Part shown: positions 1,161 through 21,715 of the stretch, piece after piece
Layout: each line of letters opens with the position of its first letter
Numbering within the stretch: the stretch's first letter is position 1
NCBI GenBank assembly: GCA_035695065.1
Contig: DASSEW010000007.1
Span: 8,525-72,524 of the forward strand
Direction: 5' to 3'
DNA: 64,000 bases
Source of the DNA: Rhodanobacteraceae bacterium
Lineage (GTDB): Bacteria > Pseudomonadota > Gammaproteobacteria > Xanthomonadales > Rhodanobacteraceae
The notes under the pieces: model-generated
Told to the model about the DNA's origin: nothing
The model's input: only the letters and a program-made list of their open reading frames with translations
Database searches by the model: none
Made by a program: the position numbers and the translations under genes

Positions 1161-1173
1161 CGTCAATGCTGTT

Positions 1174-1286
1174 CCCTTCCACCGCTTGCGGGGGAAGGTG
1201 CCGAAGGCGGATGGGGGAAATACTCGCGATATTTTCGCACGGTTCCCCTCACCCCAATCCCCTCTCCCGCAAGCGGGAGAGGGGTT
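1174..1286. repeat. bipartite GC-rich palindromic repeat element, intergenic copy
   Basis: Layout: CCTTCCACCGCTTGCGGGGGAAGG hairpin + GTGCCGAAGGCGGATGGGGG, then a spacer, then CCCCTCACCCCAATCCCCTCTCCCGC-AA-GCGGGAGAGGGG hairpin. Same module order (reverse orientation) and about 80 percent similar by eye to the copies at 14517-14647 and 15874-15980. Confidence 0.7.
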
Positions 1287-1288
1287 CA

Positions 1289-1664: not shown

Positions 1665-1670
1665 TTCACG

Positions 1671-2966: not shown

Positions 2967-3002
2967 TCGTGGTTCCCGGTGAAGTGGGAGTTGGTGGTCC
3001 GG

Positions 3003-3074: not shown

Positions 3075-3107
3075 CTGCTGATCCTTCAGAGGCGGGCGCA
3101 AAAGCCG

Positions 3108-5059: not shown

Positions 5060-5109
5060 GCCGGCAGAGACTAGCACGCGTGCCGGATTGTTCAATGGCG
5101 AACAGCGCG

Positions 5110-6234
5110 TCAGCCGGTGAACTTCCGGTGCGCGTGGATGGACATCAGCACGCCGAATCCGCACAGCAGCGTGACGGCCGAGGTGCCGCCGTAGGAGATC
5201 AGCGGCAGCGGCACGCCGACCACGGGCAGCAGGCCGGTGATCATGCCGCCGTTGACCATCACGTAGACGAAGAAGCTCATGCCGATCGCGCCGGCGAGCA
5301 GGCGCGAATAGGTGTCGCGCGCATTCGCCGCGATCCACAGGCAGCGGCCGACGATGAACGCGTACAGTGCGAGCAGCAGCAACACGCCGACCAGGCCGAA
5401 CTCCTCCGAGAACACCGCGAATATGAAGTCGGTGGTGTGCTCGGGCAGGAACTCCAGCCGCGACTGCGTGCCGTGGTGCCAGCCCTTGCCGAACACGCCG
5501 CCGGAACCGACCGCGATCATCGACTGGATGATGTGCCAGCCATTGCCGAGCGGATCGTTTTCCGGATGCAGGAAGGTCAGCACGCGCTGGCGCTGGTAGT
5601 CGTGCAGGAAATGCCAGGCGACCGGCGCCGCGCCGGCGAGCGCGCCGAGCATCAATCCGATCCGCCACCACGCGATGCCTGACAGGAACAATACGAAGAC
5701 GCCCGCGGCGGCGACCAGCAGCGCGGTGCCGAGGTCCGGCTGTTTGGCGATCAGCGCGGAAGGAATCGCGATCAGCAGCCCGACCACCGCGATGTCCTTC
5801 CAGCCCGGCGGCAGGTGGCGCGGGTGCAGGTACCACGCGATCATCATCGGCATCGAGAGCTTCAGGAACTCCGAGGGCTGGAAGCGGATCACGCCGAGAT
5901 CCAGCCAGCGGTTGGCGCCGCGGCCTTCGCCCAGCACCGCCACGATCACCAGCAGGAACGTGCTGAACGCATAGAACCACGGCGTCCAGGTGCGCAACAC
6001 CGTGGGCGGTATGCGCGCGATCACCAGCATCAGGATCGCGCCGAGCACGAAGCGCGCGGCCTGCCCGCCGATCACCGAGAGATCGAGATCGCTGGCGCTG
6101 TACAACGTGACCAGGCCCGTGCAGGCCAGCACGAACAGCGCGCCGGCCAGCGGCAGGTCGATCCGCGCGTGGGTCCACAGGTGGCGGCCGAAGCGCAGCG
6201 CGCGTGCGCGCAAGGTGGCGACGATCGCGTTCAT
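5110..6234 (-). CDS. rodA: rod shape-determining protein RodA (SEDS family)
   Basis: ORF 5110..6234, polytopic membrane protein with FtsW/RodA/SpoVE pattern (PSEFLKL, LLPVVGVPLPLISYGGTS). ATGA overlap with the mrdA stop. Confidence 0.95.
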   Translation of the reverse strand: MNAIVATLRARALRFGRHLWTHARIDLPLAGALFVLACTGLVTLYSASDLDLSVIGGQAARFVLGAILMLVIARIPPTVLRTWTPWFYAFSTFLLVIVAVLGEGRGANRWLDLGVIRFQPSEFLKLSMPMMIAWYLHPRHLPPGWKDIAVVGLLIAIPSALIAKQPDLGTALLVAAAGVFVLFLSGIAWWRIGLMLGALAGAAPVAWHFLHDYQRQRVLTFLHPENDPLGNGWHIIQSMIAVGSGGVFGKGWHHGTQSRLEFLPEHTTDFIFAVFSEEFGLVGVLLLLALYAFIVGRCLWIAANARDTYSRLLAGAIGMSFFVYVMVNGGMITGLLPVVGVPLPLISYGGTSAVTLLCGFGVLMSIHAHRKFTG

Positions 6235-8159: not shown

Positions 8160-8170
8160 TGTTCAAGTTC

Positions 8171-8239
8171 CGTAGGGCGGACACTGTCCGCCTTCGCGCA
8201 TCGCCTTTCGGCGACCGGCGGGCACTGCCCGCCCTACGC
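8171..8239. repeat. REP pair of the GTAGGGCGG type
   Basis: CGTAGGGCGGACACTGTCCGCC (8171-8192) and GGCGGGCACTGCCCGCCCTACG (8218-8239) form an inverted pair, each with an internal palindrome. Same family as 37951-38001. Overlaps the mreD stop codon. Confidence 0.6.
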
Positions 8240-8725
8240 TTCTTTCGCGCGCAAGCGCGCTCTCACATCGTCGATCAGCAGGAACACGAACGGCCACGCG
8301 ATCGTGCCGGTGAGCGGCGCCAGCCAGAAACTCGCCGGCGGCCGCGGATCGCCCGCGAACAACCGCACCAGCAACAGCAGGATGCGATCGTTCAACAACA
8401 GCACCAGCACCGCCAGCGCCTGCTGCCACATCGGGAAGAACCGCAGCCGCGCGCGGAAGCGCAACACGATGAAGGTGAGCGCGGCGAGCCGCAGCGCCTG
8501 CTCGCCGAGCAGCGCACCGTCGAGCAGATCCGCGGCGAGGCCGACCAGGAATGCAAGGCCGATGCTGGCGCGATCGGGTGCTTCCAGCGACCAGTAGATC
8601 AGCACCAGCGCCGGCCAGTACGGCTTCAGCGGTGCCAGTGCCTGCGGCAGCGGCATCAGCATGAGCAACAACGCGCTGATGAGACTGCCGGCGAAAATCC
8701 AGAACTGGGTGCGTTGCTTGTTCAT
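8234..8725 (-). CDS. mreD: rod shape-determining protein MreD
   Basis: ORF 8234..8725, 163 aa, multi-TM, immediately downstream of mreC with a 4-nt overlap. Size and position are typical of MreD. Confidence 0.88.
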   Translation of the reverse strand: MNKQRTQFWIFAGSLISALLLMLMPLPQALAPLKPYWPALVLIYWSLEAPDRASIGLAFLVGLAADLLDGALLGEQALRLAALTFIVLRFRARLRFFPMWQQALAVLVLLLNDRILLLLVRLFAGDPRPPASFWLAPLTGTIAWPFVFLLIDDVRARLRAKEA

Positions 8726-9690
8726 CGCTGCGACACCGCATTCGGTGCAGCCGCGGCGGGACGCGCGTCCTTTTGTTGCACCGGCTGCGCGGAAGCCAGC
8801 GTCGCCGGCGGCCCGACTTCCGGCGCAACTTTCGGCGGCCCGACCGGCTCGGGCTGGTCCCGCAGCAGCAGGACTTCGCCGCTGCGCGCCAGGTCGGCGG
8901 CAGGTTTGGCGCTGGCCTGCGCGAACATGCCGGAAGGATCCGGGCCGACTTTCGTGATCGTGCCGACCGGGAAGCCGGCCGGGAAACGCCCACCCAGGCC
9001 GGACGTGGAGATTCGATCACCGACTTTCACGTCCGCCGACAGCGGGATGTCGGAAACGATCAGCCGGTCCGGCGCACCGCTGCCGTGCGCGACGCCGCGC
9101 AGGCCGGAGCGCTCGTCCACCACCGGGATCGAATGATTGCCGTCGGTGACCAGCAGCGCGACCGACGTATGCGGCAGCACCTCGACGATCTGGCCCATCA
9201 CGCCGTGCGCATCGATCACGACCTGGCCGGCATGCACGCCTTCCTTCGCGCCCGCATCGATCATCACGCGGTTGCGCGCGGGGCCGAGATCCACGTCGAT
9301 CAGCCGCGCCAGTTGCACGTCCATGCCGAGCATGTGGCGCGTGTCCAGCAACTGCTTCAGCCGCTTGTTCTGCTCGGCGACGGCATTCATGCGGTTGAGC
9401 CGTGCCTGCGCCAGCAGCAGCGCCTCGCGCAGATGCTGGTTGTCGTCGACCAGGTCGCGATGGCTGGTGAATGCGACACGCAGGTTCTGCGCGGCCTCGC
9501 CCGGCCACGCGGCCACGCGGTAGATCGGCTCGATGGCCACCGACGCCGCATAGCGCGCGCGCAGCAGCCAGCCGTTGCGGTGATCCAGCACCATCAGCAC
9601 GCAGGCCAGCGCGAGATAGAAGATCAGGCGCAACGTGCCCGCCGCCGCGTCGGCGAAGATCGGGGAGGATTCCTTGTGCGGGAGCGCCAT
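8722..9690 (-). CDS. mreC: rod shape-determining protein MreC
   Basis: ORF 8722..9726; ATG 9690 (MALPHKESSPIF). N-terminal TM, coiled coil (LREALLLAQARLNRMNAVAEQNKRLKQLL), beta-rich core and Pro-rich tail. Confidence 0.92.
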   Translation of the reverse strand: MALPHKESSPIFADAAAGTLRLIFYLALACVLMVLDHRNGWLLRARYAASVAIEPIYRVAAWPGEAAQNLRVAFTSHRDLVDDNQHLREALLLAQARLNRMNAVAEQNKRLKQLLDTRHMLGMDVQLARLIDVDLGPARNRVMIDAGAKEGVHAGQVVIDAHGVMGQIVEVLPHTSVALLVTDGNHSIPVVDERSGLRGVAHGSGAPDRLIVSDIPLSADVKVGDRISTSGLGGRFPAGFPVGTITKVGPDPSGMFAQASAKPAADLARSGEVLLLRDQPEPVGPPKVAPEVGPPATLASAQPVQQKDARPAAAAPNAVSQR

Positions 9691-9745
9691 GTCCGGAGAG
9701 TGAAGTCGGCGGCCGGGCCGCCCCATGAAGAGTCAAGAGCAAAGA

Positions 9746-9772
9746 GGGGAAGCCATGTCGGGCGGCTTCTCC
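9746..9772 (-). terminator. possible attenuator hairpin between mreB and mreC
   Basis: On the minus strand GGAGAAGCC-9 nt-GGCTTCCCC (one mismatch) is followed by TCTTTGCTCTTGACTCTTC. Weak intrinsic-terminator-like structure in the 178-nt mreB-mreC spacer. Confidence 0.3.
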
Positions 9773-9868
9773 TCTACAACGGGCACGGCGAGCGACTTTA
9801 CTCTTTACAGCGGACCCGGTGGGCGACTTTCCCCACAGGCGGCGATGACGTGCATGACCTGCTTCACA

Positions 9869-11005
<1,137 letters not shown>

Positions 11006-11065
11006 TTAAAAAAGCCTTGTTGCATGCGGGTTCCGGCGGGGTCGTGATGGTGGTCACGCAAACAA

Positions 11066-11150
11066 TCCCTTCCCCCGCTTGCAAGAGCGCCATCCATGGC
11101 CGAGAGCTCCGTGGTGCCCGTAGGGCGGATGGGGGGAATACTTGCGAAAT
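11066..11150. repeat. degenerate partial copy of the bipartite repeat
   Basis: ATCCCTTCCCCCGCTTGCAAGAGCGCC ... GGTGCCCGTAGGGCGGATGGGGGGAATACTTGCGAAATCGC parallels 1176-1240 (GGTGCCGAAGGCGGATGGGGGAAATACTCGCGATATTTTCGC). Confidence 0.4.
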
Positions 11151-11194
11151 CGCTGCTGCTACGATCGCGGATCGCTCTACCGGGGAACCACGCA

Positions 11195-12133
11195 ATGCCT
11201 GCTGCCCTGATCTGCGGCTCGATGGCTTACGACACCATCATGGTGTTCGGCGACCGCTTCAAGAACCACATCCTGCCGGACAAGGTGCACATGTTGAACG
11301 TGTCGTTCCTGGTCCCGCAGATGCGCCGGGAATTCGGCGGCTGCGCCGGCAACATCGCCTACAACCTCAAGCTGCTCGGCGGCGATCCCTTGCCGCTGGC
11401 CACCGTCGGGCAGGACTTCGATCCCTACCGCAAGCACCTCGCCGCCTGCGGCATCCGCATGGACGGCCTGCGCGAGCTGCCGGACACCTTTACCGCGCAG
11501 GCGTTCATCACCACCGACCTCGACGACAACCAGATCACCGCCTTCCATCCGGGCGCAATGATGCGCAGCCACGAGAACCACGTGCGCGACATCGCCGATA
11601 TCGCCTTCGGCATCGTCGCCCCGGACGGGCGCGACGGGATGTTGCAGCACGCGCGCGATTTCGCCGAACGCGGCGTGCCTTTCATCTTCGATCCCGGCCA
11701 GGCGATGCCGCTGTTCGACGGCGAGGAATTCCGCGCCTTCATCGAGCAGGCCGATTACGTCACCGTCAACAGCTACGAAGCGAGCCTGCTGCAGGAACGC
11801 ACCGGCTGGTCGGAAGCCGAGATCGCGCAGCGCGTGAAGGCCTATATCGTGACGCACGGCGGCGAAGGCTCGGCGATACACACACGCGACGAGGTTTTCG
11901 AGATTCCAACGGCAACGCCGCGCGCCGTCACCGATCCGACCGGCTGCGGCGACGCCTATCGCGCAGGACTGATTTTCGGCTTGATGAAAAATTGCGATCT
12001 GCCGACCGCAGGCCGCATGGCCTCACTGATGGGCGCGCTGAAAATCGCGCATCCCGGCACGCAGAACCAGCGGTTCACGTACGCGGAATTCGCGGAGGAA
12101 TTCCGCAAGCAGTTCGGGTATTCGCTGGCCTAA
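11195..12133 (+). CDS. PfkB-family carbohydrate/nucleoside kinase
   Basis: ORF 11096..12133; start ATG 11195 (MPAALICGSMAYD). GGCAGNIAYNL near the N-terminus and DPTGCGDAYRAGLIFG near the C-terminus are the PfkB signatures. Confidence 0.85.
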   Translation: MPAALICGSMAYDTIMVFGDRFKNHILPDKVHMLNVSFLVPQMRREFGGCAGNIAYNLKLLGGDPLPLATVGQDFDPYRKHLAACGIRMDGLRELPDTFTAQAFITTDLDDNQITAFHPGAMMRSHENHVRDIADIAFGIVAPDGRDGMLQHARDFAERGVPFIFDPGQAMPLFDGEEFRAFIEQADYVTVNSYEASLLQERTGWSEAEIAQRVKAYIVTHGGEGSAIHTRDEVFEIPTATPRAVTDPTGCGDAYRAGLIFGLMKNCDLPTAGRMASLMGALKIAHPGTQNQRFTYAEFAEEFRKQFGYSLA

Positions 12134-12186
12134 ATCTCCCTTCTCCCGCTTGCGGGAGAAGGTGCCCGAAGGGCGGATGAGGGTGT
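12134..12186. repeat. half copy of the bipartite repeat
   Basis: ATCTCCCTTCTCCCGCTTGCGGGAGAAGGTGCCCGAAGGGCGGATGAGGGTG: hairpin TTCTCCCGC-TT-GCGGGAGAA plus the GTGCC.GAAGG.CGGATG.GGG tail shared with the 1176-1215 module. Confidence 0.45.
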
Positions 12187-12500
12187 CGCGCACAAAGTGC
12201 GCGGCTTTCGTATTTGCTAGTACGACATCCATGTCTTTTTTCCGCGCCGTCCCACGGCGCGGGTTACTTTCCTTTCGGGAAAGTAACCAAAGCCACGGCG
12301 CCGGCATGACGGTCTCGCCAACGTCCGGTTGGCTCGACTCCCCTGCGCTTCTCGCCGGGCGCGCGCCGGCGCGAACTCGCACATCCTTGTGCTCAGACAG
12401 TCGCGCCTTTCCCGCGCGCCCGGCTGCGATGCTCGGCGTCATGCGACGGCGCCGGAGCTCACTTCGACACGGCCATCCATGGCCTGCAATGGTTTGCATC
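12187..12500. repeat. structured non-coding region (probable family-specific intergenic repeat)
   Basis: About 310 nt without a credible ORF. Contains the perfect 11-bp hairpin GGTTACTTTCC-tttcg-GGAAAGTAACC (12262-12288) and several GC-rich dyads (CGCGCCGTCCCACGGCGCG, GCGCGCGCCGGCGCG). Only one copy in the window, so repeat status is an inference. Confidence 0.3.
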
Positions 12501-12552
12501 CCCCGCCTGATACTGCTTGCGATAATATCGAAAGCGTCGAGGGGAGACTCTT

Positions 12553-13059
12553 ATGCAAACCTTCTTTATAGCTCTGGCCACAGTCATAGGACCCATTGCC
12601 GCAGTCGTAATTACGCGCCTCATGGATGATCGCAAAGCACGAGAGATGAGGCGCTACTCTGTGTTCTCTACCCTCATGGCTCTGCGCGGGCTAAGCATCC
12701 ATGCTGAGCATGTGCGCGCACTCAATTTGGTCCAGTTAGAGTTCGCAAAAAACTCTCAGGTCATCAATTCATGGCGGAATTTCGTTAACCATGTGGAGAC
12801 CGATGCAACTGTAGACCCGACCTCTTGGAACATGAAATACCGGGATCTACTGAATCAACTGTTGGTTGATATTGCGAAAGATCTAAAAATTCAAAGTAAC
12901 GAGATCGACTTGGCGCGCGGCGGCTATTACCCAAGAGGCTGGGCATTCCAAGAAGAGCGAATTCAAGCCGCCCAAGAGTTCGTGCAGGGGCTTTCCAGCG
13001 GCACGAAAGCAGTGCCGGTCAAACTAGTTGAGGCGGGAGCAACGATCCTGACTCAGTAG
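12553..13059 (+). CDS. hypothetical protein, N-terminal TM anchor, low-GC orphan
   Basis: ORF 12553..13059, 168 aa. MQTFFIALATVIGPIAAVVITRL TM segment then a helical soluble domain. Visibly AT-richer than its flanks. RBS GAGGGGA 7 nt upstream and TAATAT -10-like hexamer at about 12524. I vaguely associate the pattern with a DUF family (possibly DUF6680) but cannot verify this. Confidence 0.7.
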   Translation: MQTFFIALATVIGPIAAVVITRLMDDRKAREMRRYSVFSTLMALRGLSIHAEHVRALNLVQLEFAKNSQVINSWRNFVNHVETDATVDPTSWNMKYRDLLNQLLVDIAKDLKIQSNEIDLARGGYYPRGWAFQEERIQAAQEFVQGLSSGTKAVPVKLVEAGATILTQ

Positions 13060-13089
13060 GCAATCGGCTCGAAATGAAGACCCGAAGAA

Positions 13090-14904
13090 TTACTTCTTCG
13101 GCACGTACAAATCCGTGATCGTGCCTTCGAACACTTCCGCCGCCATGCCGACGGATTCGGAAAGCGTCGGGTGCGGGTGGATGGTGAGGCCGATGTCGGC
13201 CGCTTCCGCGCCCATCTCGATCGCGAGCGCGATTTCGGAAATCAGGTCGCCCGCGTGCACACCGACGATGCCGCCGCCGAGCACGCGTTGCGTCGCATTG
13301 TCGAAGATCAGCTTGGTGAAGCCTTCGCTGCGATCCATGCCCAAGGCGCGGCCTGAGGCCGCCCACGGGAATTTCGCCACGCCGACGTCGAACTTCTTTT
13401 CCTTCGCCTCGCGCTCGGTCACGCCCACCCAGGCCACTTCCGGATCGGTGTAGGCCACGCTCGGGATCACGCGCGCGTCGAAGGCGCTCTTGTGGCCGGC
13501 GCAGACTTCGGCCGCCACTTTTGCTTCGTGCGTCGCCTTGTGCGCCAGCATCGGCGGGCCGACGATGTCGCCGATGGCGAAGATGTGCGGCACGTTGGTG
13601 CGCAGTTGTTTGTCGGCGGGAATGTAACCGCGCTCGGTGACATTCACGCCGGCCTTGTCCGCACCGATCTTCCTGCCGTTCGGCACGCGGCCGACCGCGC
13701 ACAGCACGCGATCGAATACCTGCGGTTTCGGCGCGTTGTCACCTTCGAATACCACTTCGATGCCGTTCTTCTGTGCTTTCGCCGAAGCCACTTTCGTCTT
13801 GAGATGGATGCCGGCGTAGCGCTTGGAAATGCGTTGTTGCAGCGGTCGCACCAGGTCGGGATCGGTACCGGGCATCAGCTGGTCGAACAATTCGACCACA
13901 GTCACTTCCGCACCGAGCGCGTCGTACACGCAGGCCATCTCCAGGCCAATGATGCCGCCGCCGATCACCAGTAGCTTCTTCGGAATTTCGCCGAGCATCA
14001 GCGCATCGGTCGAATCCATCACGCGCGGATCGCCCCACGGCAGGCCGGGCAGTTTCACTGCCTGCGAACCCGCGGCGATGATGCATTGTTCGAAACGAAC
14101 GAGCTTCCTGCCTTCGCTCGTCTCCACTTCGATCTCGTGCGGCGACACGAAGGTGCCCGTGCCGCGCACGCCGCGCACCTTGCGCTGCTTCACCATCGCG
14201 GCGAGCCCGCCGGTGAGCTTGGCGACCACGCCGTCCTTGAACGCGCGCAGCTTGTCGAGTTCGATCTTCGGCTTGCCGAACACGATGCCGTGTTCGGCCA
14301 TCAGTTCGGCATCGTTGATCAAATCGGCCGCGTGCAGCAGCGCCTTGGACGGAATGCAGCCGACGTTGAGGCACACGCCGCCGAGCCGCTCGTAGCGTTC
14401 GATCAGGATGGTGTCGAGGCCGAGATCGGCGGCGCGGAACGCGGCGGTGTAACCGCCGGGGCCGGAGCCGAGCACGCAGACCTGGCAATCGAAGTCGGGC
14501 TTGCGACCGGTGGATGGACTCCCTCCCCCGCTCGCGGGGGAGGGTTGGGGTGGGGGTGTCGCTTGCCGCGCATTTTCCGCTGCGGCGATTTTGGAACCGC
14601 CCCCCTCTGCCTTCGGCATCTCCCCCCGCTGCGCGGGGGGAGAATTCTTTTCATTGGATGATTCGGCGCCGGACTCCACCACCGCAATCACGCTGCCCTC
14701 GGAAACGTTGTCGCCTTCCTTGACGCGCAGTTCCTTGATCGTGCCCGCGGCGGAGGCCGGGACTTCCATGGTCGCTTTCGCCGATTCCAGCGTCAGCAGG
14801 CTCTGGTCCTTTTCGACCTTGTCGCCGACCTTCACCAGCACCTCGATCACCGGCACGTCGGAGAAATCGCCGATCGCGGGGACTTTCAGTTCGATCGTGG
14901 CCAT
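13090..14904 (-). CDS. lpdA: dihydrolipoyl dehydrogenase (E3) with N-terminal lipoyl domain
   Basis: ORF 13090..14985; ATG 14904 (MATIELKVPAIGDF). Lipoyl domain (LESAKATMEVPA), GSGPGGYTAAF FAD fold, redox disulfide CLNVGCIPSK and C-terminal HPHPTLSE. Confidence 0.95.
   Translation of the reverse strand: MATIELKVPAIGDFSDVPVIEVLVKVGDKVEKDQSLLTLESAKATMEVPASAAGTIKELRVKEGDNVSEGSVIAVVESGAESSNEKNSPPAQRGEMPKAEGGGSKIAAAENARQATPPPQPSPASGGGSPSTGRKPDFDCQVCVLGSGPGGYTAAFRAADLGLDTILIERYERLGGVCLNVGCIPSKALLHAADLINDAELMAEHGIVFGKPKIELDKLRAFKDGVVAKLTGGLAAMVKQRKVRGVRGTGTFVSPHEIEVETSEGRKLVRFEQCIIAAGSQAVKLPGLPWGDPRVMDSTDALMLGEIPKKLLVIGGGIIGLEMACVYDALGAEVTVVELFDQLMPGTDPDLVRPLQQRISKRYAGIHLKTKVASAKAQKNGIEVVFEGDNAPKPQVFDRVLCAVGRVPNGRKIGADKAGVNVTERGYIPADKQLRTNVPHIFAIGDIVGPPMLAHKATHEAKVAAEVCAGHKSAFDARVIPSVAYTDPEVAWVGVTEREAKEKKFDVGVAKFPWAASGRALGMDRSEGFTKLIFDNATQRVLGGGIVGVHAGDLISEIALAIEMGAEAADIGLTIHPHPTLSESVGMAAEVFEGTITDLYVPKK
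14517..14647. repeat. bipartite palindromic repeat, in-frame inside the lpdA linker
   Basis: Module L: GACTCCCTCCCCCGCTCGCGGGGGAGGGTTGGGGTGGGGG. A 42-nt spacer follows. Module R: CCCCCCTCTGCCTTCGGCATCTCCCCCCGCTGCGCGGGGGGAGAATTC. Translated on the minus strand as PPAQRGEMPKAEGG...TPPPQPSPASGGGS. Confidence 0.75.
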
Positions 14905-14908
14905 CGCG

Positions 14909-16276
14909 TTACACCAGCAGCCGGCGCAGGTCGCCGAGCACGCGTGACAGATACGCGGCGAAGCGCGCGGCATCGGCGCCATCAATCACGCGATGGTCAT
15001 AGGACAGCGACAGGGGCAGCATCAGCCGCGGCTCGAACGCGCTGCCGTTCCACACCGGCTGCATGCTTGAGCGCGACACGCCCAGGATCGCCACTTCCGG
15101 CGCGTTGATGATCGGCGTGAACGACGTGCCGCCGATGCCGCCCAGCGAAGAAATCGAGAAGCAGCCGCCGGACATGTCATTGGGCGAGAGCTTCCTGTCG
15201 CGCGCCTTCTTCGAGATCTCGCCGAGTTCGCTCGCCAATTCCAGCAGGCCCTTGCGATCGGCGTCGCGGATCACGGGCACGACAAGGCCATCGAGCGTGT
15301 CCACGGCGATCCCGATGTGGAAATATTTTTTCAGCACGAGTTTTTCGCCGGAAGCATCCAGCGAAGCATTGAACTGCGGGTACTGCTTCAGCGCCGCGAC
15401 CGCCGCCTTGATCAGGAACACCAGCGGCGTGATCTTCACTTCCTTGTTTTCCGCACCGAGCTGCTTGCGGAACGCTTCCATGTCGGTGATGTCGGCGGAT
15501 TCGTGCTGGGTGACGTGCGGGATCATCGCCCAGTTGCGCGCGAGGTTGGCGCCGGAAAGTTTCTTGATGCGCGAGAGCGGCTTCTCCTCGATCGCGCCGA
15601 ATTTCGAAAAATCCACCTGCGGCCAGGGCAGCAGATTGAGTCCGCCACCGCCCGATGCCACGTGCGAGGTCGCGCCGCCGGCGAGCGCCGACTTCACGAA
15701 CGCCTGCACGTCCTCTTTCGTGATGCGACCACCGCGCGCCGAACCGTGCACGCGCGCGATGTCCACGCCCAGCTCGCGCGCGAACGCGCGCACCGCGGGA
15801 CTGGCGTAGGGCACCTTGTCCGGCGCCACCGTGTCGGCGTCGAAGGGAACCGGCGGCGAGCGCGGGGCCTCCTGACTCCCTCCCCCGCTCGCGGGGGAGG
15901 GTCGGGGTGGGGGCGATGATTGCGATGAACTGCCCCCCTCCGCCTTCGGCACCTCCCCCCGCTGCGCGGGGGGAGGATTCACAGCTGGAGCCGCTGCGGA
16001 AGCAGAAGCTTTCGACGCAGCGGGTGAAGCAGCACCATCGCTCTCGATCACCGCGATCACGCTGCCGCGCGAAACGGTGTCGTTCTCCCTCACCTTGACT
16101 TCGCGCACCGTGCCGGCGAAAGGCGCGGGCACTTCCATCGTGGCCTTGGCCGACTCCAGCGTGACCAGCCCCTGGTCCTTCTCGACCCGGTCGCCGGGTT
16201 TCACCAGCACTTCGATCACCGGCACGTCGGTAAAATCGCCGATGTCCGGTACGGTGGCTTCTCGCGTGTCGGTCAT
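14909..16276 (-). CDS. aceF: dihydrolipoamide acetyltransferase (E2 of pyruvate dehydrogenase), single lipoyl domain
   Basis: ORF 14909..16327; ATG 16276 (MTDTREATVPDIGDF). Lipoyl LESAKATMEVPA, PSBD ASPAVRAFARELGVD, catalytic LSLSYDHRVIDGA. Confidence 0.95.
   Translation of the reverse strand: MTDTREATVPDIGDFTDVPVIEVLVKPGDRVEKDQGLVTLESAKATMEVPAPFAGTVREVKVRENDTVSRGSVIAVIESDGAASPAASKASASAAAPAVNPPPAQRGEVPKAEGGSSSQSSPPPRPSPASGGGSQEAPRSPPVPFDADTVAPDKVPYASPAVRAFARELGVDIARVHGSARGGRITKEDVQAFVKSALAGGATSHVASGGGGLNLLPWPQVDFSKFGAIEEKPLSRIKKLSGANLARNWAMIPHVTQHESADITDMEAFRKQLGAENKEVKITPLVFLIKAAVAALKQYPQFNASLDASGEKLVLKKYFHIGIAVDTLDGLVVPVIRDADRKGLLELASELGEISKKARDRKLSPNDMSGGCFSISSLGGIGGTSFTPIINAPEVAILGVSRSSMQPVWNGSAFEPRLMLPLSLSYDHRVIDGADAARFAAYLSRVLGDLRRLLV
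15874..15980. repeat. bipartite palindromic repeat, in-frame inside the aceF lipoyl-PSBD linker
   Basis: Module L is identical to the lpdA copy except for 1 nt (GGGTCGGGG). Module R differs at 3 nt. The spacer is shorter. Translated as PPAQRGEVPKAEGG...PPPRPSPASGGGS. Confidence 0.75.
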
Positions 16277-16343
16277 GCTCGTCCCTTGGCTCGATGCAGC
16301 AGGCGCAGACCGCAGAGTTTCGCGCATTCGCGCAGCCGCGTCA

Positions 16344-17201
16344 TCACGGACGCAATTCCGCCTGCGTCGGACTGATCACCTGCTTGACGGTGATTTCGTG
16401 CTGCGAAGAGGGTGCGCTGACGCCTTCGGCTTCGAACTTCTCCTTCACGGCGCGCATGAGACCGGTCTCCGCTTCCCACAGATCGGCCACGTGCGCCCAG
16501 GCGCGGATCATCAACTGGATGGTTTTCGTACCCGCGTCCAGCGAGCACACCCACACCCCGGGCGCGGGCTCCTTCAGGATGCGCGGGTCGTTCGCGCACA
16601 GGTCCCGCACCAGCCGGATCGCGCGGCCGATGTCTTCGGTGTAGGCGATGCCGATGGTGATCTCGAAGCGGCGCTGGCCGAGCCGGTTGTAGTTGATGAT
16701 CGCGTCGCCACCGACCTTCGCGTTGGGCACGATCGCCTGGCGGTTGTCCGGCATCGTGAGATACGTCTGCATCAAATCGACGCGCTCGACCGTGCCCATG
16801 ATCGCGCCGAACTGCACGAAGTCGCCGACCCGGAACGGCCGGAACAGGATCAACAGCACGCCCCAGGCGAGGTTCGACAGCGAGCTCTGCAGGGCGAGCC
16901 CGATCGCAAGGCCCGCCGCGCCGACCGCGGCGATCAACGAAGCGCTCGGCAATCCGACCAGTTGCAACAGGCTGACCACGAGCAGCACGATCAGCACGCC
17001 GTAAATGCCGTTGCGCAGGAAGCCGATCAGGGTGGGATCGAGGTGTCCGCGTTGCAGGCCGCGCCGCAGCAGGTTGGCGAGCTGGCCGATGACCCAGATG
17101 CCCACCACCAGCAGCACGATCGCGCCGGCGAGGCGCAAGCTGAAATGGGCGATGCGCTCGGGCAACTTGGGCAGGTTCAGGCGGAGCAACAGGTCGTGCA
17201 T
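16344..17201 (-). CDS. mechanosensitive ion channel family protein (MscS-like)
   Basis: ORF 16344..17213. Three TM helices followed by LILFRPFRVGDFVQFGAIMGTVERVDLMQTYLTMPDNRQAIVPNAKV, typical of the MscS beta domain. ATG 17201 preferred; GTG 17213 possible. Confidence 0.88.
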   Translation of the reverse strand: MHDLLLRLNLPKLPERIAHFSLRLAGAIVLLVVGIWVIGQLANLLRRGLQRGHLDPTLIGFLRNGIYGVLIVLLVVSLLQLVGLPSASLIAAVGAAGLAIGLALQSSLSNLAWGVLLILFRPFRVGDFVQFGAIMGTVERVDLMQTYLTMPDNRQAIVPNAKVGGDAIINYNRLGQRRFEITIGIAYTEDIGRAIRLVRDLCANDPRILKEPAPGVWVCSLDAGTKTIQLMIRAWAHVADLWEAETGLMRAVKEKFEAEGVSAPSSQHEITVKQVISPTQAELRP

Positions 17202-17458
17202 GCGGATCTCCACGCGCGGTCCATAAGCCTAGCATCCATGCCGAATCCTCCCGCCGCCGCGATCTTTGCCACAGCCGGCGTACGCATGACGTGCACATCA
17301 CACTTGATACAAATTGTGAACTGAACGGGTGATTGCCGCGAAACGTGAACGCGTGCGCCCTATCGCGGCAGCACGAGCCTAGAATGAAGAATTCGCGCGA
17401 GTGATCCCGCGCAGTGGAACGGAAACCACACGAGCTCTGAAGGAACAGGCACTCCCGC

Positions 17459-18505
17459 ATGACCAGCGCGGAATTCGCGGCGGTACCTTCGCCGCCGCTC
17501 CTCCCACCAGCCGCCGTCAATGACGCGCGGGCAACGCTGAAGCCGTTCGAGAATTTCGACCAGGCCTGCCGCGCCGTGCTCGCGCGCCTGCGCGCCGACA
17601 CCGGCGTGGCGATGTGGGCGTTCACGCGCACCGACGGCAATGACTGGCTGCTGCTCTCCACCGATGGCGAGCACGAGGGCTTGGCGCCGGGCGGGCGCTT
17701 GCCGTGGCGCGACAGCCTGTGCGCACGCATGGTCGCCGGCGAAGCGCCCGAGGCTGCGCCGGACGTGCTGGCCGAACCGCGCTATCGCGATGCGCCGCTG
17801 CTGGAGCGCGCGCCGATCCGCGCTTACATCGGCGTACCGCTGACGCGCGCAGACGGCAGCTTGTACGGAACCCTGTGCGGCTTCGATCCTTCGCCGCACG
17901 GCTCGGAACTGCCGCTGCACCTGCCGCAGGTGCACTTGCATGCACGCCTGCTCGGCACGCTGCTGGAGCACGACTTGGAGCTGGCGGAAATCGTGCGCCG
18001 CGCCGAACGCGCCGAACTGGATTCGCTCGCCGATCCGTTGACCGGCTGCTACAACCGGCGCGGCTGGACGCGATTGCTGAAAGCCGAAGAAGCCCGCTGC
18101 CGCCGTTACGGCCACGGCGCCGGCGTGATCATGGCCGACCTCGACAACCTCAAGGTGATCAACGACAGCCTCGGACATGACGCGGGCGACGCGCTGCTGG
18201 CGCGCGCGGCGCGCGCACTCGCAAGCGTCGTCCGGCACGGCGATGCAGTCGCGCGTATCGGCGGCGATGAATTCGCGGTGCTGGCGATCGACGTTGGTGC
18301 CGCGGAGCTGGATCAGCTATGCATGCGCGCGGACCAGGCCCTGCGCGATGCCGAAGTGGAGGCCACGCTCGGCACCGGTTTGCGCGATCGCGAGCAGTCG
18401 CTCGCGCAAGCCTACCGGCAGGCGGATCTTGCGATGCTGCAACTCAAGCACGGCAAGCGCGCGCGCTTGCGGGCCATCGCATCGGGCGAGCCGAAGCCGC
18501 GCTGA
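17459..18505 (+). CDS. GAF-domain diguanylate cyclase (GGDEF)
   Basis: ORF 17459..18505. N-terminal GAF-like region (AYIGVPLTRADGSLYGTLCGFD). DPLTGCYNRRGW, DLDNLKVINDSLGHDAGD, RHGDAVARIGGDEFAVL (RxxD I-site plus GGDEF). Confidence 0.88.
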   Translation: MTSAEFAAVPSPPLLPPAAVNDARATLKPFENFDQACRAVLARLRADTGVAMWAFTRTDGNDWLLLSTDGEHEGLAPGGRLPWRDSLCARMVAGEAPEAAPDVLAEPRYRDAPLLERAPIRAYIGVPLTRADGSLYGTLCGFDPSPHGSELPLHLPQVHLHARLLGTLLEHDLELAEIVRRAERAELDSLADPLTGCYNRRGWTRLLKAEEARCRRYGHGAGVIMADLDNLKVINDSLGHDAGDALLARAARALASVVRHGDAVARIGGDEFAVLAIDVGAAELDQLCMRADQALRDAEVEATLGTGLRDREQSLAQAYRQADLAMLQLKHGKRARLRAIASGEPKPR

Positions 18506-18531
18506 GGGCAGCCCCGGCTCGCCCGGGATGA

Positions 18532-19047
18532 TTACTTCTTGTGGTGGTGCGTGCGCACGTGGCCCGCGCGGCTGATGGTGAACTTGGCGCCCGACAAGCC
18601 GAGATCCACGCCCTGGCCCACGCCGGCCAGCGCCAGCGAGACCTCGCCTTTCGTCAGCACCTGCGCGGTGCCCGCTTTCACGGCCGCGATGTTGGCTTCG
18701 CCCTGCGCGTAATCGCCCAGCACATCGCGAATGTTGTGCACGTCGGTGAAGGTGCCGGTGCCGTCGTTGATCTGCCACTTGCCGGCCGTCAAACCGCCGC
18801 CGACCACCTTCAGGTCCACCGGCATCGATTCGCCGTTCTCGCAGGTGACGGTGCCGTGGCCTTCGGCCTTCTTGACGATCGCCGACCAGCCTTTCATCGT
18901 GAACGAAAGCTTGCAATCCAGGTCGGCTTGCGCGGCGTACACGTGCGGTGCAACGGCCAGCGCGGCGGCGCCCAGCAGCGCTGCGCCGATCAGCGCGGTG
19001 GCACGGCGGTGCGTGTAGAGGGTTCGAGCGGTGACATTGCCTTGCAT
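18532..19047 (-). CDS. secreted hypothetical protein
   Basis: ORF 18532..19293; start ATG 19047 preceded by GAAGGAGAA. Signal peptide ...ALIGAALLGAAALAVAPHVYAAQA. Beta-rich, Gly-rich, two Cys, ends HHHKK. Confidence 0.7.
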   Translation of the reverse strand: MQGNVTARTLYTHRRATALIGAALLGAAALAVAPHVYAAQADLDCKLSFTMKGWSAIVKKAEGHGTVTCENGESMPVDLKVVGGGLTAGKWQINDGTGTFTDVHNIRDVLGDYAQGEANIAAVKAGTAQVLTKGEVSLALAGVGQGVDLGLSGAKFTISRAGHVRTHHHKK

Positions 19048-19231
19048 GGCGGATTCTCCTTCTTTGATTGCAAGCCGCGGCGACGGGCGACAGGCCCGAC
19101 TGCCACGGCTACAGTTTCCGCGCGGCGACCTGAACAAGACGGCGCCTCGAACCGACTGCACGCTGAACCGGAGATTTGACAGCGCGATCGGTCGGCCGCA
19201 TGGTCCATTCGGCCATGCAGGAGCAACGATC

Positions 19232-19564
19232 ATGAAGTCCATGCAGATTGCCGGCGCCGCGTTCGCGCTCGCCGCAGCCTTCGCTTTCAACACGGCACCC
19301 GCGCAGGCGCGGGTGGTCTGCCGCGACGTGCAAGTGGTTCACCAGGTGCCGCACAAGGACAAGCACCGCGTCGCCGGCACCGCGATCGGCGCCGTAGCCG
19401 GCGGCCTGCTCGGGCACCAGGTCGGCAAGGGCAAGGGCAAGACGCTCGCCACGGTGGGCGGCGCGGTCGCGGGCGGCGCGATCGGCCATCACGTCCAGAC
19501 CGAACACCAGAAGCACGATACCTACACGACGGTCGAACGCCGCTGCGACGAAGTGCAGGATTGA
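19232..19564 (+). CDS. glycine-zipper 2TM domain protein (small outer-membrane/surface-antigen-like)
   Basis: In ORF 19031..19564, ATG 19232 preceded by CAGGAGCAA. Signal peptide MKSMQIAGAAFALAAAFAFNTAPAQA and Gly-zipper GTAIGAVAGGLLGHQVGKGKGKTLATVGGAVAGGAIG. Confidence 0.75.
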   Translation: MKSMQIAGAAFALAAAFAFNTAPAQARVVCRDVQVVHQVPHKDKHRVAGTAIGAVAGGLLGHQVGKGKGKTLATVGGAVAGGAIGHHVQTEHQKHDTYTTVERRCDEVQD

Positions 19565-19570
19565 CGCGGC

Positions 19571-21715
19571 TCAGTGCCGCGGCAGGTTCACCTTCTGCAT
19601 AAGCATCGCGAAACGCGGATCGGAACACCAGTCGGCGTCGCTGAAACCGGTCACCATCATCAGCAGATGATCGTGATCGGCTGCCGCACGCAGCAGGTTG
19701 TCGAACGCGCGATCCTTGTCGCCGAGTTCCCACTCTGGAAACGCCAGCGCCACGCCCGAAACGTATTGGCGGGCCGAGCGCTTCTCCAGCGCGGCGAGCT
19801 GCTCGCGCGCGAGCGCGTGGTGGCCCGCTTCCCATTGCAGCGTCGCCAGGAACCCGAGATAACTGGACGGATGCGGCGCCGGCGTCAAAGCGACGGCCAT
19901 CCGCGCCTCGGCGATCGCATCCTCGGAGCGGCCCTTGGCCCGCAGCGCGCCGGCCAGGAATGCGTGCGCCAGCGCGAACCGCGGTTCCAGCGCGATCGTG
20001 GCGCGGGCCTGCTCGATCGCGGCGTCCACATCGCCCGCGTACAGCAGCGCCCGCCCGAGGTCGGCGTTGATGATGGGCGAAAGCGGATCCAGGTCGCGCG
20101 CGCGCCGCATTTCCACCAGCGCGCCCGCCATGTCGCCCACGAACCACAGGTACATTGCCCGCCACTGGCGGGCGGTGGCATCGCTCGGATCGAGCTCCAG
20201 CGCGCGCCGCAATTCGCGATCCGCATCCGCCCATCGCCAATGCATTTCATTCAACAGACCCAGCACCGCATGACCGCGCGATTGCTGCGGGTCCAGCGCG
20301 ACCGCCCGCTCGGCCGCGGCGAGCGCGTCTTCGTAATGCGCGTCGGGCGGCGCGTCGCTGTTGTAGTCGCGCAGCACCGTGTAGGCCTCCGCGACCGCGC
20401 TCCAGGCCGGCGCGTAATCCGGGTCGGCCTGGATCGCGCGGCGGAAGTAGGCGATCGCCTGCGCGATGTCGGCGCTGGTGCGGCGATTGAGGTACTGCAA
20501 GCCGACGAAGTAGTAATCGTGCGCGGCCGGATCCAGCCCGGCGCGGGTGTGGAGGTCCGACAACGTCGAGGCGCTGAGCTTGGGTTGCAGCTCGCGCAGC
20601 ACCGCCTCGGCGATTTCATCTTCCACGGTGAGCAGGTCGCGCGCGGCGGGCTCGTATTCGGTCGCCCACAGTTCATAACCGTCCTGCGCGCTGATCAGCG
20701 CCACGCGCACGCGCAGCCGCTCGCCGGAACGTTGCACGCTGCCTTCGAGCACGTTGGCCACGCCGAGCGCATGCGCAGCCTGGCGCACGTCGACCGGCTT
20801 GTCGCGGAACACGAATGCCGAGGTACGCGCGGCCACCCGCAGGTGCGAGAAGCGGCCGAGCCGGTTGATCAGTTCCTCGGTGATGCCGTCGCTCAGGTAC
20901 TGCTGCGAGGCATCGGCATCCATGTCGATGAACGGCAGCACCGCCAGGGTGACGGCGCCGGGCGCGGGTGCGGACGCCGGCTTCGCGGCGACGGCTGCAT
21001 GGTCCCCCGGCGCGGATGCATTGCTGCGCGCCCATCCGAAGTAAACACCTGCCGCGAGCATGACGATCGCGGCAAACCCGGCGGCAACGATCCACATGCG
21101 CCGGCGGCCGGGCGGCGGAACGGGGGCCTGCGCAGGCGATTCCGGAGCGCGCTCGGGCATCGCCACGGCGACTTCGCCTGCAGCCGTCGGGACAGGAAGC
21201 GCCGGTGCATCGACATCGCCGGCGCGGCGGCGCGGCGGCTCCGCCGGCTCGACCGGATGCAGCAATGCGCATTCGGCTTCCCACAATTGCGCGGTCAGCA
21301 ACTGCATCGCGTCGGCGAGGCGGCGGCGATAGGTACTCCAGCTCAGGTGCAGGCTTTCGGCCACCACCTGCTGGCTGCGCATCGGCGACAGCCAGGTCAG
21401 CTCCAGCACGCGCCGCAGCGCGGCGAGCTTCGGCGCATCGCCGATGCGCTCGCACTGTTCGCGCAGGAGGTCCTTCAGCGCCTGCACCGGCGCGATGGGC
21501 TCCGCCGCCTCGCGCACCGCGGCCGCGACCAGTCGCGAATGCAGCAATGCGTTCTCGCGCAGCAGGTCGGTGCGCAGGTAATGCCGCAAGGCCGAACGCA
21601 CGGCGTCGGCGAATTCGGCTTCGGTCAATGCGGCAGCGGGCTGCTCGGCGGCTTCGCTGGAAGCGGACGCAGGACGATGCTGCCCGGCTGGTTCGGACCC
21701 GATCGGCTCTGCCAT
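19571..21715 (-). CDS. membrane-anchored putative transcription regulator: N-terminal sigma70-region-4-like HTH, TM helix, TolB-N-like module, TPR repeats
   Basis: ORF 19571..21844; ATG 21715. HTH-like SQQVVAESLHLSWSTYRRRLADAMQLL. TM WIVAAGFAAIVMLAAGVYFGW. Then LAVLPFIDMDADASQQYLSDGITEELINRLGRFSHLRVAARTS. Then multiple TPR-like units (AIAYFRRAIQADPDYAPAW, ERAVALDPQQSRGH, RRALELDPSDA). Confidence 0.8.
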   Translation of the reverse strand: MAEPIGSEPAGQHRPASASSEAAEQPAAALTEAEFADAVRSALRHYLRTDLLRENALLHSRLVAAAVREAAEPIAPVQALKDLLREQCERIGDAPKLAALRRVLELTWLSPMRSQQVVAESLHLSWSTYRRRLADAMQLLTAQLWEAECALLHPVEPAEPPRRRAGDVDAPALPVPTAAGEVAVAMPERAPESPAQAPVPPPGRRRMWIVAAGFAAIVMLAAGVYFGWARSNASAPGDHAAVAAKPASAPAPGAVTLAVLPFIDMDADASQQYLSDGITEELINRLGRFSHLRVAARTSAFVFRDKPVDVRQAAHALGVANVLEGSVQRSGERLRVRVALISAQDGYELWATEYEPAARDLLTVEDEIAEAVLRELQPKLSASTLSDLHTRAGLDPAAHDYYFVGLQYLNRRTSADIAQAIAYFRRAIQADPDYAPAWSAVAEAYTVLRDYNSDAPPDAHYEDALAAAERAVALDPQQSRGHAVLGLLNEMHWRWADADRELRRALELDPSDATARQWRAMYLWFVGDMAGALVEMRRARDLDPLSPIINADLGRALLYAGDVDAAIEQARATIALEPRFALAHAFLAGALRAKGRSEDAIAEARMAVALTPAPHPSSYLGFLATLQWEAGHHALAREQLAALEKRSARQYVSGVALAFPEWELGDKDRAFDNLLRAAADHDHLLMMVTGFSDADWCSDPRFAMLMQKVNLPRH

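What the first reader, a model, noticed from the sequence alone, without database searches (positions are those of the whole stretch)
15874..15980. Second in-frame copy of the same repeat in the lipoyl-to-PSBD linker of E2 (aceF)
Module L (40 nt) differs from the lpdA copy at 1 position and module R (49 nt) at 3 positions. The internal spacer differs in length (about 20 versus 42 nt). The aceF frame is preserved and reads ...AVNPPPAQRGEVPKAEGGSSSQSSPPPRPSPASGGGSQEAPRS..., immediately before the peripheral-subunit-binding domain (PYASPAVRAFARELGVD).

Two neighbouring genes each carry an independent copy in the same reading frame and at functionally equivalent positions (flexible linkers). This implies either selection for tolerated insertion sites or gene conversion between the linkers.
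Basis: partly seen in the sequence, partly recalled or inferred. Interest (0 to 1): 0.7.

Follow-up and report, generated by a model that had tools for sequence, protein, structure and literature searches.

The report
Palindromic repeat translated inside PDH linker
A 107-base GC-rich palindromic repeat of a dispersed, probably mobile, family sits in frame in the flexible linker of the pyruvate dehydrogenase E2 gene, next to a sister copy in E3. This is a further example of the known phenomenon of selfish palindromic DNA tolerated inside protein linkers.

Summary
Window 15874-15980 (minus-strand aceF) holds a 107-nt bipartite palindromic element. Its 40-nt and 54-nt modules are 97.5% and 92.6% identical to the lpdA copy at 14517-14647. 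It reads in the same frame and lies between the lipoyl domain and the E3-binding domain.

It is not a native linker. A third, extragenic copy lies at 1174-1287. One 21-mer of the element recurs in many Lysobacterales genomes and, unexpectedly, in Chloroflexota, mostly between genes. Extragenic copies fold as one long hairpin, an inverted doublet like a REPIN.

In-frame copies always sit in interdomain linkers: E2, E3, fused CoA-transferases and an S9 peptidase.

- **lpdA copy:** old, and shared by many Rhodanobacteraceae.
- **aceF copy:** one relative shares its spacer and one module, another keeps a decayed remnant, and others lack it. Its other module has been replaced between relatives.

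Stop codons do not force the shared frame, since 5-6 of 6 frames are open. Independent insertion and gene conversion cannot be separated with the data held. The mobilising enzyme is unknown.

Translated REPs and Rickettsia palindromic elements are precedents, so this is a new member of a known kind. Interest is moderate.

The parts
15874..15980 (-). aceF copy of the bipartite palindromic element. It is 107 nt, translated in frame as residues 100-134 of E2 (NPPPAQRGEVPKAEGGSSSQSSPPPRPSPASGGGS).
15927..15980 (-). Module R, the 5' side in the mRNA. It holds an 11-bp G/C hairpin (15952-15976), the mini-hairpin GCCTTCGGC (15942-15950) and a C-run on the + strand (15933-41), which is a G-run in the mRNA.
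   Evidence: The 46-nt core is 43/46 identical to the lpdA copy and 46/46 to the E2-linker copy of L126.
15914..15926 (-). Internal spacer. It is variable between copies but shared with the aceF copy of L001.
15874..15913 (-). Module L, the 3' side in the mRNA. It holds a 10-bp G/C hairpin (15878-15901) and the run GGGGTGGGGG on the + strand (15904-15913).
14517..14647 (-). Sister copy in the lipoyl-to-FAD-domain linker of lpdA. It is 131 nt, with hairpins at 14521-14544 and 14619-14643.
1174..1287 (+). Third, diverged, extragenic copy. It lies between the stop of a DUF493/ybeD-like ORF (my reading of the ORF product, not tested against Pfam) and the likely start of lipB. It folds as one long hairpin.
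14909..16276 (-). aceF, the dihydrolipoamide acetyltransferase E2. It has a single lipoyl domain, an E3-binding domain and a catalytic domain.
13090..14904 (-). lpdA, the dihydrolipoyl dehydrogenase E3 with an N-terminal lipoyl domain. It is 100% identical to P0121 from a Rhodanobacteraceae MAG.

Best explanation
The segment is one copy of a dispersed family of GC-rich palindromic doublets. Each doublet has two inverted hairpin modules around a variable spacer, like a REPIN or BIME. This copy came to lie inside the disordered lipoyl-to-PSBD linker of E2 and is translated.

It persists for three reasons (inferred):
- The element has no stop codons in almost any frame.
- Its CCN, GGN and GCN codons yield a Pro/Gly/Ser/Ala-rich peptide that can serve as linker.
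- Total linker length stays in the normal range.

The neighbouring lpdA linker holds an older resident copy of the same family.

**Shown:** family membership, position, frame, hairpin potential, presence or absence in relatives, and replacement of the R module between relatives.

**Inferred:**
- The copy arrived by transposition or recombination of a repeat rather than arising in situ.
- Later exchange with other copies (gene conversion or re-insertion at the resident element) keeps the palindromes intact.
- The mobilising enzyme is a single-strand, hairpin-recognising transposase of the RAYT/IS200 type. This was not tested.
For: **The repeat**
- It is statistically real.

**Spread of the family**
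- There is an extragenic copy in the same window.
Several copies came from single genomes of Luteimonas, Pseudoxanthomonas and Dehalococcoidia. The hairpin and mini-hairpin architecture is the same throughout.
- Most of these copies have no coding-like ORF running through them.
- Pairs of copies flank ordinary genes.

**Structure**
- Extragenic copies fold as one long hairpin (z -5.6 to -6.9). The aceF and lpdA copies fold as two terminal hairpins plus a central stem (z -4.5 and -4.9).
- The two main stem variants, TCTCCCCCCGC/GCGGGGGGAGA and CCTTCCCCCG/CGGGGGAAGG, differ by changes on both arms.

**In-frame copies**
- All lie between domains: E2 of L024, L126 and L128; E3 of many orthologues; CoA_transf_3 fusions; and a PD40 + S9 peptidase.

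**History in aceF**
- L001 shares 48 nt of spacer plus L module.
- L003 keeps a decayed L module (p = 0.0065).
- L002 and L124 show nothing (p = 0.56 and 0.81).
- The R module differs between the window, L001 and L003.

**Other**
- The element is open in 5-6 of 6 frames.
- Linker length is similar with or without the element.
Against: - No transposase, target-site duplication or clean empty site was found, so mobility is inferred only from dispersion.
- The family lacks the GTAG or CGTC tag of classical REPs (sequence read against PMC3733652).
- Only three copies are visible in the 64 kb held, so the copy number in this genome is unknown.
- The lpdA copy is more conserved than neutral sites. 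Third codon positions are 41/43 identical against about 81% in the flanks (Fisher p = 0.007). The R core is 46/46 identical between aceF genes that are only 69% identical as protein. A merely tolerated passenger does not predict either result; they point to constraint or to concerted evolution.
Confidence: 0.75

Rival explanations
1. The aceF copy, or at least its R module, was made or refreshed by gene conversion or unequal recombination from the lpdA copy 1.35 kb downstream. The two copies then share frame, orientation and near-identity by common origin, not by independent insertion.
For: - The two copies share orientation and frame, although 5-6 frames are open.
- Identity is 39/40 and 50/54.
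- Both window copies share the loop variant GCGAGC, whereas lpdA of L001 and L002 has GCAAGC.
- The window aceF R module is closer to its own lpdA copy (43/46) than to the R module of its orthologue in L001.
- None of the 115 nearest E2 homologues carries the ..VPKAEGG peptide, whereas 23 of 109 E3 homologues do.
Against: - The spacers differ in length and sequence.
- The spacer and L module of aceF are orthologous to those of L001 aceF, so the element was already there.
- The aceF R core carries GGTGCC...GGCGGAG, as do the E2 copies of L126, L128 and L024. The lpdA copies carry GATGCC...GGCAGAG.
- The flanking lipoyl domains are only 75% identical, so no long conversion tract exists.
Confidence: 0.3
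2. The element is kept because its nucleic-acid structure works within these genes. It could act as an RNA hairpin that pauses ribosomes between domains, stabilises the mRNA or binds a protein, or as a DNA structure. On this view the in-frame copies are exapted rather than merely tolerated.
For: - No substitution falls in the hairpin stems of lpdA across the window, L001 and L002, while flanking third positions differ by about 19%.
- The 46-nt core is nearly identical across phyla. The lpdA copy is 45/46 to Chloroflexota copies.
- The predicted structures are very stable.
- All three window copies lie at lipoate-related genes: aceF, lpdA and upstream of lipB.
Against: - The E3 copy has decayed in L125 and L128, with a 3-nt deletion in the stem.
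- It is absent from many orthologues.
- The aceF copy is missing in close relatives with normal A/P-rich linkers.
- No Rfam family matches.
- Most family members are intergenic next to unrelated genes.
Confidence: 0.2
3. The segment is ordinary low-complexity linker coding sequence (Pro/Gly/Ala codons in a 66% GC genome) that looks palindromic by chance or by convergence. It is not a repeat-family member.
For: PDH linkers are normally Ala/Pro/Glu/Lys-rich. MAFFT aligns PAQRGEVPKAE with PAEKVEAPKAE of other orthologues.
Against: - Perfect 10- and 11-bp palindromes have zero expectation in shuffles.
- Nucleotide-level homologues exist outside genes and in other phyla.
- Codon-shuffle tests show that A/P-rich linkers of L002 and L124 have no similarity to the element beyond chance.
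Confidence: 0.02

Closest known systems
Intragenic (translated) REP elements, as catalogued among GTAG- and CGTC-tagged palindromic repeats (Di Nocera et al. 2013, PMC3733652)
   Same: Both are short GC-rich palindromes, often as dimers, that are normally extragenic. Occasionally they lie in frame within ORFs and add 20-30 or more residues. The same gene can carry two inserts.
   Different: No GTAG or CGTC tag is visible at the foot of the hairpins. Each hairpin is joined to a conserved mini-hairpin (TGCCGAAGGCA) and a G-run. The hosts here are PDH E2 and E3 linkers rather than the DNA-repair genes emphasised in that paper.
REPINs mobilised by RAYT transposases (Bertels & Rainey 2011, PMC3116915)
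   Same: Both consist of two inverted REP-like modules around a short spacer that fold into one long hairpin. Both are dispersed, mostly intergenic and persist within lineages (abstracts).
   Different: No RAYT gene was found or could be searched for genome-wide. The core is shared between Gammaproteobacteria and Chloroflexota, wider than the lineage-restricted vertical inheritance described for REPIN-RAYT systems. The aceF and lpdA copies are asymmetric, since only one module carries the mini-hairpin.
Rickettsia palindromic elements (RPE; Ogata et al. 2000 and 2002, as summarised in PMC10969869)
   Same: Both are palindromic repeats inserted in frame into unrelated, functional protein-coding genes, at positions compatible with the protein fold.
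   Different: The lineage and base composition differ, and no sequence relationship is expected. RPEs are about 150 bp and encode a conserved peptide in one frame. This family is read in at least four frames in different hosts.
Bacterial MITEs (Correia/NEMIS, ERIC, Coxiella QMITE; PMC10969869, PMC5896051)
   Same: Both are small non-autonomous repeats with inverted termini that sometimes form in-frame fusions with host ORFs.
   Different: No target-site duplication and no parent insertion sequence were seen. The termini are themselves hairpins, as in REPs, rather than simple terminal inverted repeats.

Membership tests
REP / BIME (repetitive extragenic palindromes) | Short (20-40 nt) GC-rich imperfect palindrome able to form a stem-loop | tested here: met
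   Stems of 10 and 11 bp lie at 15878-15901 and 15952-15976. 93 of 132 family members have a perfect stem of at least 6 bp.
REP / BIME (repetitive extragenic palindromes) | Many dispersed, mainly extragenic copies per genome | tested here: inconclusive
   The 64-kb window holds 3 copies, 1 of them extragenic. The source genome as a whole was not available.
REP / BIME (repetitive extragenic palindromes) | Conserved GTAG or CGTC tetranucleotide tag at one end of the stem (Di Nocera 2013) | tested here: not met
   The hairpin flanks read GACT/GGGT and GCAC/GATT on the + strand. No GTAG or CGTC appears in the 119 unique R modules listed.
REPIN-RAYT system | Two REP modules in inverted orientation around a short spacer, folding as one long hairpin | tested here: met
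   The extragenic copies (window 1174-1287, L023, L019) fold as a single long hairpin. The aceF and lpdA copies are imperfect doublets.
REPIN-RAYT system | A cognate single-copy RAYT (Y1 transposase) gene flanked by the repeats in the same genome | not testable with these tools
   The whole genome is not held. A crude motif scan (NPVRAGL...WxxSS, motifs from memory) of the window and 203 loci found none. Genes between inverted copies in L006 and L072 are metF-like and SDR-like by my reading of the translations.
MITE | Terminal inverted repeats plus target-site duplication | tested here: inconclusive
   The termini GAATCCTCCCC... and ...GGGGAGGGAGTC are inverted. No direct repeat flanks the aceF, lpdA or lipB-upstream copies. 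No clean empty site is available.
Rickettsia palindromic elements | Membership of one of the RPE sequence families | not tested
   RPE serves only as a functional analogue. No sequence comparison was made.
Rfam structured RNA families | Match to a curated covariance model | tested here: not met
   Nothing matched at the element in window 1-20000. Five loci holding copies gave only sub-threshold miRNA-hairpin noise.

The most novel reading that the evidence does not exclude
The 46-nt core consists of an 11-bp C/G hairpin, a GAA-loop mini-hairpin and a G-run. On this reading it is a functional nucleic-acid module conserved across phyla (Gammaproteobacteria, Chloroflexota, and single copies in Bacteroidota, Fibrobacterota and Bacillota). 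A still unidentified conserved protein or transposase recognises it, and selection on its nucleotide sequence continues even where it is translated. The PDH E2 and E3 linkers of Rhodanobacteraceae would then be dual-constraint sequences, repeatedly rebuilt from this module. The family would be an untagged class of REPIN-like elements with an unknown mobilisation system.
Probability: 0.2. Interest if true: 0.7.

Novelty: new member of a known kind. Interest (0 to 1): 0.45.

Why it matters
It gives a clean bacterial example, outside Rickettsia, of selfish palindromic DNA supplying interdomain linker sequence in a central metabolic enzyme complex. Relatives show retention, decay and module replacement side by side.

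Practical consequences:
- Annotation pipelines and homology-based linker analyses should expect such inserts.
- The two direct repeats 1.35 kb apart are potential recombination substrates inside the aceF-lpdA operon.

The near-identity of the core between distant phyla is unexplained and could lead to a new repeat-mobilisation system.

Tried and rejected
**Searches that found nothing useful**
1. Peptide search of the protein collection. A 40-aa query found no candidate sharing words.
2. phmmer of the 40-aa peptide against 1.84 billion representatives gave one irrelevant tandem-repeat protein, P0241. The query is too short and of too low complexity.
3. The AlphaFold2 model of E2 from a 27-sequence alignment had mean pLDDT 35.5 and could not show linker disorder.
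4. Rfam gave no family.
5. Full-text searches for the DNA motif and the peptides gave no papers.
6. A crude RAYT motif scan of all held DNA gave no hit. Genes between inverted copies are ordinary.

**Hypotheses tested and rejected**
7. The A/P-rich aceF linkers of relatives are not decayed elements. Codon-shuffle tests were not significant for L002 and L124.
8. Stop codons do not force the shared frame.

**Limitations of other steps**
9. The metagenome scan for aceF relatives returned mostly relatives at 60-70% identity. One of its search patterns was the element peptide itself, so presence in L126 and L128 is ascertainment-biased.
10. A formal pair count on alignment A3 was abandoned, because stems with 3-nt and 4-nt loops fall in different registers of the MAFFT alignment. 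Stems were counted per sequence instead.

Full report
**1. What is in the sequence**

The region lies on the minus strand in a 66% GC window. ORF 14909-16276 encodes a 455-aa E2 acetyltransferase. Its Pfam domains are Biotin_lipoyl 8-77, E3_binding 156-191 and 2-oxoacid_dh 229-454.

Four bases downstream, ORF 13090-14904 encodes an E3 dihydrolipoyl dehydrogenase with an N-terminal lipoyl domain. This E3 is 100% identical to a protein from an NCBI Rhodanobacteraceae MAG (P0121). The nearest E2 proteins are 81-88% identical and also come from Rhodanobacteraceae MAGs.

**2.

- 15874-15913 matches 14517-14556 at 39/40.
- 15927-15980 matches 14594-14647 at 50/54.
- The spacers measure about 13-18 nt and 37-42 nt.
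- Each module contains a perfect palindrome, at 15878-15901 and 15952-15976.
- Shuffled windows give essentially no such matches.
- The segment is translated in frame as residues 100-134 of E2, 22 residues before the PSBD motif PYASPAV.

**3. Anatomy of the element**

In mRNA orientation the element reads, in order:
- an 11-bp C/G hairpin;
- a mini-hairpin, UGCC-GAA-GGCG;
- the run GAGGGGGG;
- a spacer;
- the run CCCCCACCCC;
- a 10-bp C/G hairpin.

The G-run and the C-run pair across the spacer. Predicted free energies are -67.9 kcal/mol (z -4.5) for the aceF copy and -76.6 kcal/mol (z -4.9) for the lpdA copy. The two halves are imperfect inverted copies of one another; the mini-hairpin is present only in the mRNA-5' half.

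**4. It belongs to a dispersed repeat family**

A third, more diverged copy lies at 1174-1287 on the other strand. It sits between the stop of a DUF493-like ORF and the probable start of lipB, and it folds as one long hairpin. No other hairpin of this C-run/G-run type occurs in the window.

The hits fall into three groups:
- several Lysobacterales: Luteimonas huabeiensis (at least 7 stretches), Pseudoxanthomonas, Rhodanobacter ginsenosidimutans, Rudaea, Dokdonella and Chiayiivirga;
- many Dehalococcoidia and other Chloroflexota, with up to 17 stretches from one chromosome;
- single hits in Aquimarina, a Chitinispirillaceae MAG, Dialister, Thermoanaerobaculia and Reyranellaceae.

In nearly all hits the 21-mer is preceded by the same kind of C/G hairpin. 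In many, an inverted partner module follows after a spacer.

Two stem variants dominate, TCTCCCCCCGC/GCGGGGGGAGA and CCTTCCCCCG/CGGGGGAAGG. They differ by paired changes on both arms, as expected if the hairpin itself is what is conserved.

Most copies have no ORF with coding-like codon-position GC running through them. Inverted pairs flank ordinary genes. Rfam has no matching family, and the literature library does not hold the motif or its peptides.

**5. In-frame copies sit in interdomain linkers**

Besides the two window genes, Pfam-confirmed cases are:
- an E2 from a Proteobacteria MAG, with the full element between lipoyl and E3_binding (L024);
- three Chloroflexota ORFs with two CoA_transf_3 domains and the element at the junction (L038, L095, L120);
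- a PD40 + Peptidase_S9 protein with the element between the domains (L066).

Two further E2 genes, about 69% identical to the window's, carry it in the same linker, and their E3 genes carry decayed copies (L126, L128). These two loci were partly found through the element peptide, so they are an ascertainment-biased sample.

Different hosts read the element in different frames and orientations: [39 protein letters not shown] and PPLPSASPP.

The modules contain no stop codon in any of the six frames, and only the aceF spacer has stops, in one frame. The common frame of the aceF and lpdA copies is therefore not imposed by stop codons.

**6. History in lpdA**

The lpdA copy is orthologous and almost nucleotide-identical in L001 and L002. 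Third codon positions are 41/43 identical within the element, against 0.80-0.81 in the rest of the gene (Fisher p = 0.007). No substitution falls in a hairpin stem.

Among 109 parsable E3 linkers from the 120 nearest homologues (65-100% identity; Rudaea, Dokdonella and Mizugakiibacter included):
- 23 carry ..VPKAEGG-type peptides;
- 42 carry SPASGGS-type peptides;
- 21 carry both;
- further linkers carry variant modules read in other frames.

Other lineages have plain A/P/K-rich linkers. L125 and L128 show stem-breaking deletions. The lpdA copy is therefore an old resident that is kept intact in some lineages and decays in others.

**7. History in aceF**

None of the 115 nearest E2 homologues has the ..VPKAEGG peptide. 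Even so, the copy is not private to this genome:
- L001 (88% E2 identity) shares 48 nt of spacer plus L module.
- L003 retains a decayed L module (codon-shuffle p = 0.0065). The peptide ..PASG.GSQ(D/E).PRSPP recurs in P0004, P0006, P0007 and P0014.
- L002 and L124 show no similarity above chance.

At the R-module position the three genomes differ. The window has the GAGGGGGG type. L001 has a GATGGGG type with a different mini-hairpin, read in another frame. L003 has a hairpin followed by GGGGTGAGGGGG. The R side has therefore been replaced at an already occupied site.

Other E2 lineages carry unrelated REP-like peptides at various linker positions (P0008/11/17, P0023, P0045, P0107/113, P0117). 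Total linker length stays at about 56-72 residues with or without an element.

**8. Independent insertion or conversion?**

For conversion from lpdA:
- same orientation and frame;
- 39/40 and 50/54 identity;
- a loop variant shared only by the two window copies;
- an R module closer to the window's lpdA copy than to the orthologous aceF copy of L001.

Against conversion:
- different spacers;
- a spacer and L module inherited with aceF;
- three diagnostic R positions that the window aceF shares with E2 copies of L126 (46/46), L128 and L024, but not with lpdA copies.

Those three positions are a compensatory stem pair and a wobble-compatible change, so parallel change is possible. I cannot decide between the two with the data held. 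Partial conversion or re-insertion at the R side is the most economical reading.

**9. What it most likely is and how it works**

The best-supported account is that a REPIN- or BIME-like palindromic doublet of a dispersed family resides in a disordered linker. It is tolerated there because it is stop-free and encodes Pro/Gly/Ser/Ala-rich peptide.

Mobility is inferred only from dispersion and from turnover at orthologous sites. No transposase, target-site duplication or empty site was seen.

Two results do not fit a purely passive passenger: the excess nucleotide conservation in lpdA, and the near-identity of the 46-nt core between phyla (the lpdA copy is 45/46 to Chloroflexota copies). They suggest either selection on the hairpin module itself or concerted evolution with a conserved master sequence.

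**10. Comparison with what is known**

Translated REPs and REP dimers inside genes have been catalogued, including genes with two inserts (PMC3733652). Rickettsia palindromic elements are the classic case of in-frame palindromic repeats (PMC10969869). REPINs are inverted REP doublets that form long hairpins (PMC3116915).

This element works like these. It lacks the GTAG/CGTC tag, and its link to a RAYT could not be tested, so I do not file it as a REP or REPIN sensu stricto.

**11. Verdict**

This is a new member of a known kind, and interest is moderate (0.45). What is new is that PDH E2 and E3 linkers are recurrent hosts, that module turnover is visible at an orthologous site, and that the core is unexpectedly conserved across phyla.

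Noticed in passing
window 1174-1287, 14517-14647, 15874-15980: All three copies in the 64-kb window lie at lipoate-related genes: the E2 and E3 lipoyl-domain linkers, and the gap just upstream of lipB (octanoyltransferase). This may be coincidence; whether relatives also have a copy upstream of lipB was not checked.
   Followed up: no
L004-L123 (genome-contig hits): The 21-mer GATGCCGAAGGCAGAGGGGGG, with its preceding C/G hairpin, is a high-copy repeat in Dehalococcoidia/Chloroflexota chromosomes. It is 45/46 identical to the lpdA copy of this gammaproteobacterium. Single copies occur in low-GC genomes (Aquimarina L086, Chitinispirillaceae L105/L115, Dialister L011). This cross-phylum identity is unexplained.
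   Followed up: partly
window 14619-14643 (+ strand): On the strand antisense to lpdA, the R-module hairpin is followed by ATTCTTTTCA and scores as an intrinsic-terminator-like site. The coding-strand AAAAGAATTC (residues EKNS) is conserved in L001 and L002. The aceF copy has no such T-run.
   Followed up: partly
window 15893-15913 and 14536-14556 (+ strand): GGGGGAGGGTCGGGGTGGGGG (GGGGGAGGGTTGGGGTGGGGG in the lpdA copy) fits the canonical four-tract G-quadruplex motif. It lies on the template strand of both genes. It was read by eye and not tested.
   Followed up: no
L001:2765-4156 (aceF of GCA_035694895): The orthologous aceF element has a different R module (CCCTTCCCCCGCTTGCGGGTGAAGGTGCCCGCAGGGCGGATGGGG). 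It resembles the window's lipB-upstream copy and is read in another frame ([15 protein letters not shown]), while the spacer and L module are conserved. The module was swapped at an occupied site.
   Followed up: yes
L041, L078, L082 (Luteimonas huabeiensis HB2): Downstream of the element, tandem units such as CGCTTGCGGGAGAAGGAACAAGATGGTCC follow. This suggests composite, BIME-like arrays in that genome.
   Followed up: no
L023 and L113 (Pseudoxanthomonas): Two copies with identical left flanks lie 395 and 221 nt apart in the same orientation. Larger units containing the element are therefore tandemly duplicated.
   Followed up: no
window 14674-14883 vs 16043-16252: The lipoyl domains of lpdA and aceF form a 210-nt direct repeat at 75% identity. 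This is much lower than the 93-97% of the adjacent element modules, so the elements were not co-duplicated with the domains.
   Followed up: yes
window 16277-16327: The aceF ORF extends to an upstream ATG at 16327 (472 aa, MRETLRSAP...). One database homologue (P0015) is annotated with that extension; all others start at MTDTRE/MADxRE.
   Followed up: partly
window 16344-17213 and L001-L003: aceF-lpdA is preceded by a mechanosensitive-channel (MscS-type) gene and a GGDEF gene rather than by aceE. This E2 clade has one lipoyl domain, whereas Rhodanobacter, Dyella and Frateuria E2 have two.
   Followed up: no
L019, L080, L088, L122 (Dehalococcoidia): The Chloroflexota doublets are embedded in a longer unit with its own inverted termini (…AGACTGATGCATAAC … ATGCATCAGTCT…). 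The hairpin core may therefore be a module reused inside larger MITE-like elements.
   Followed up: no
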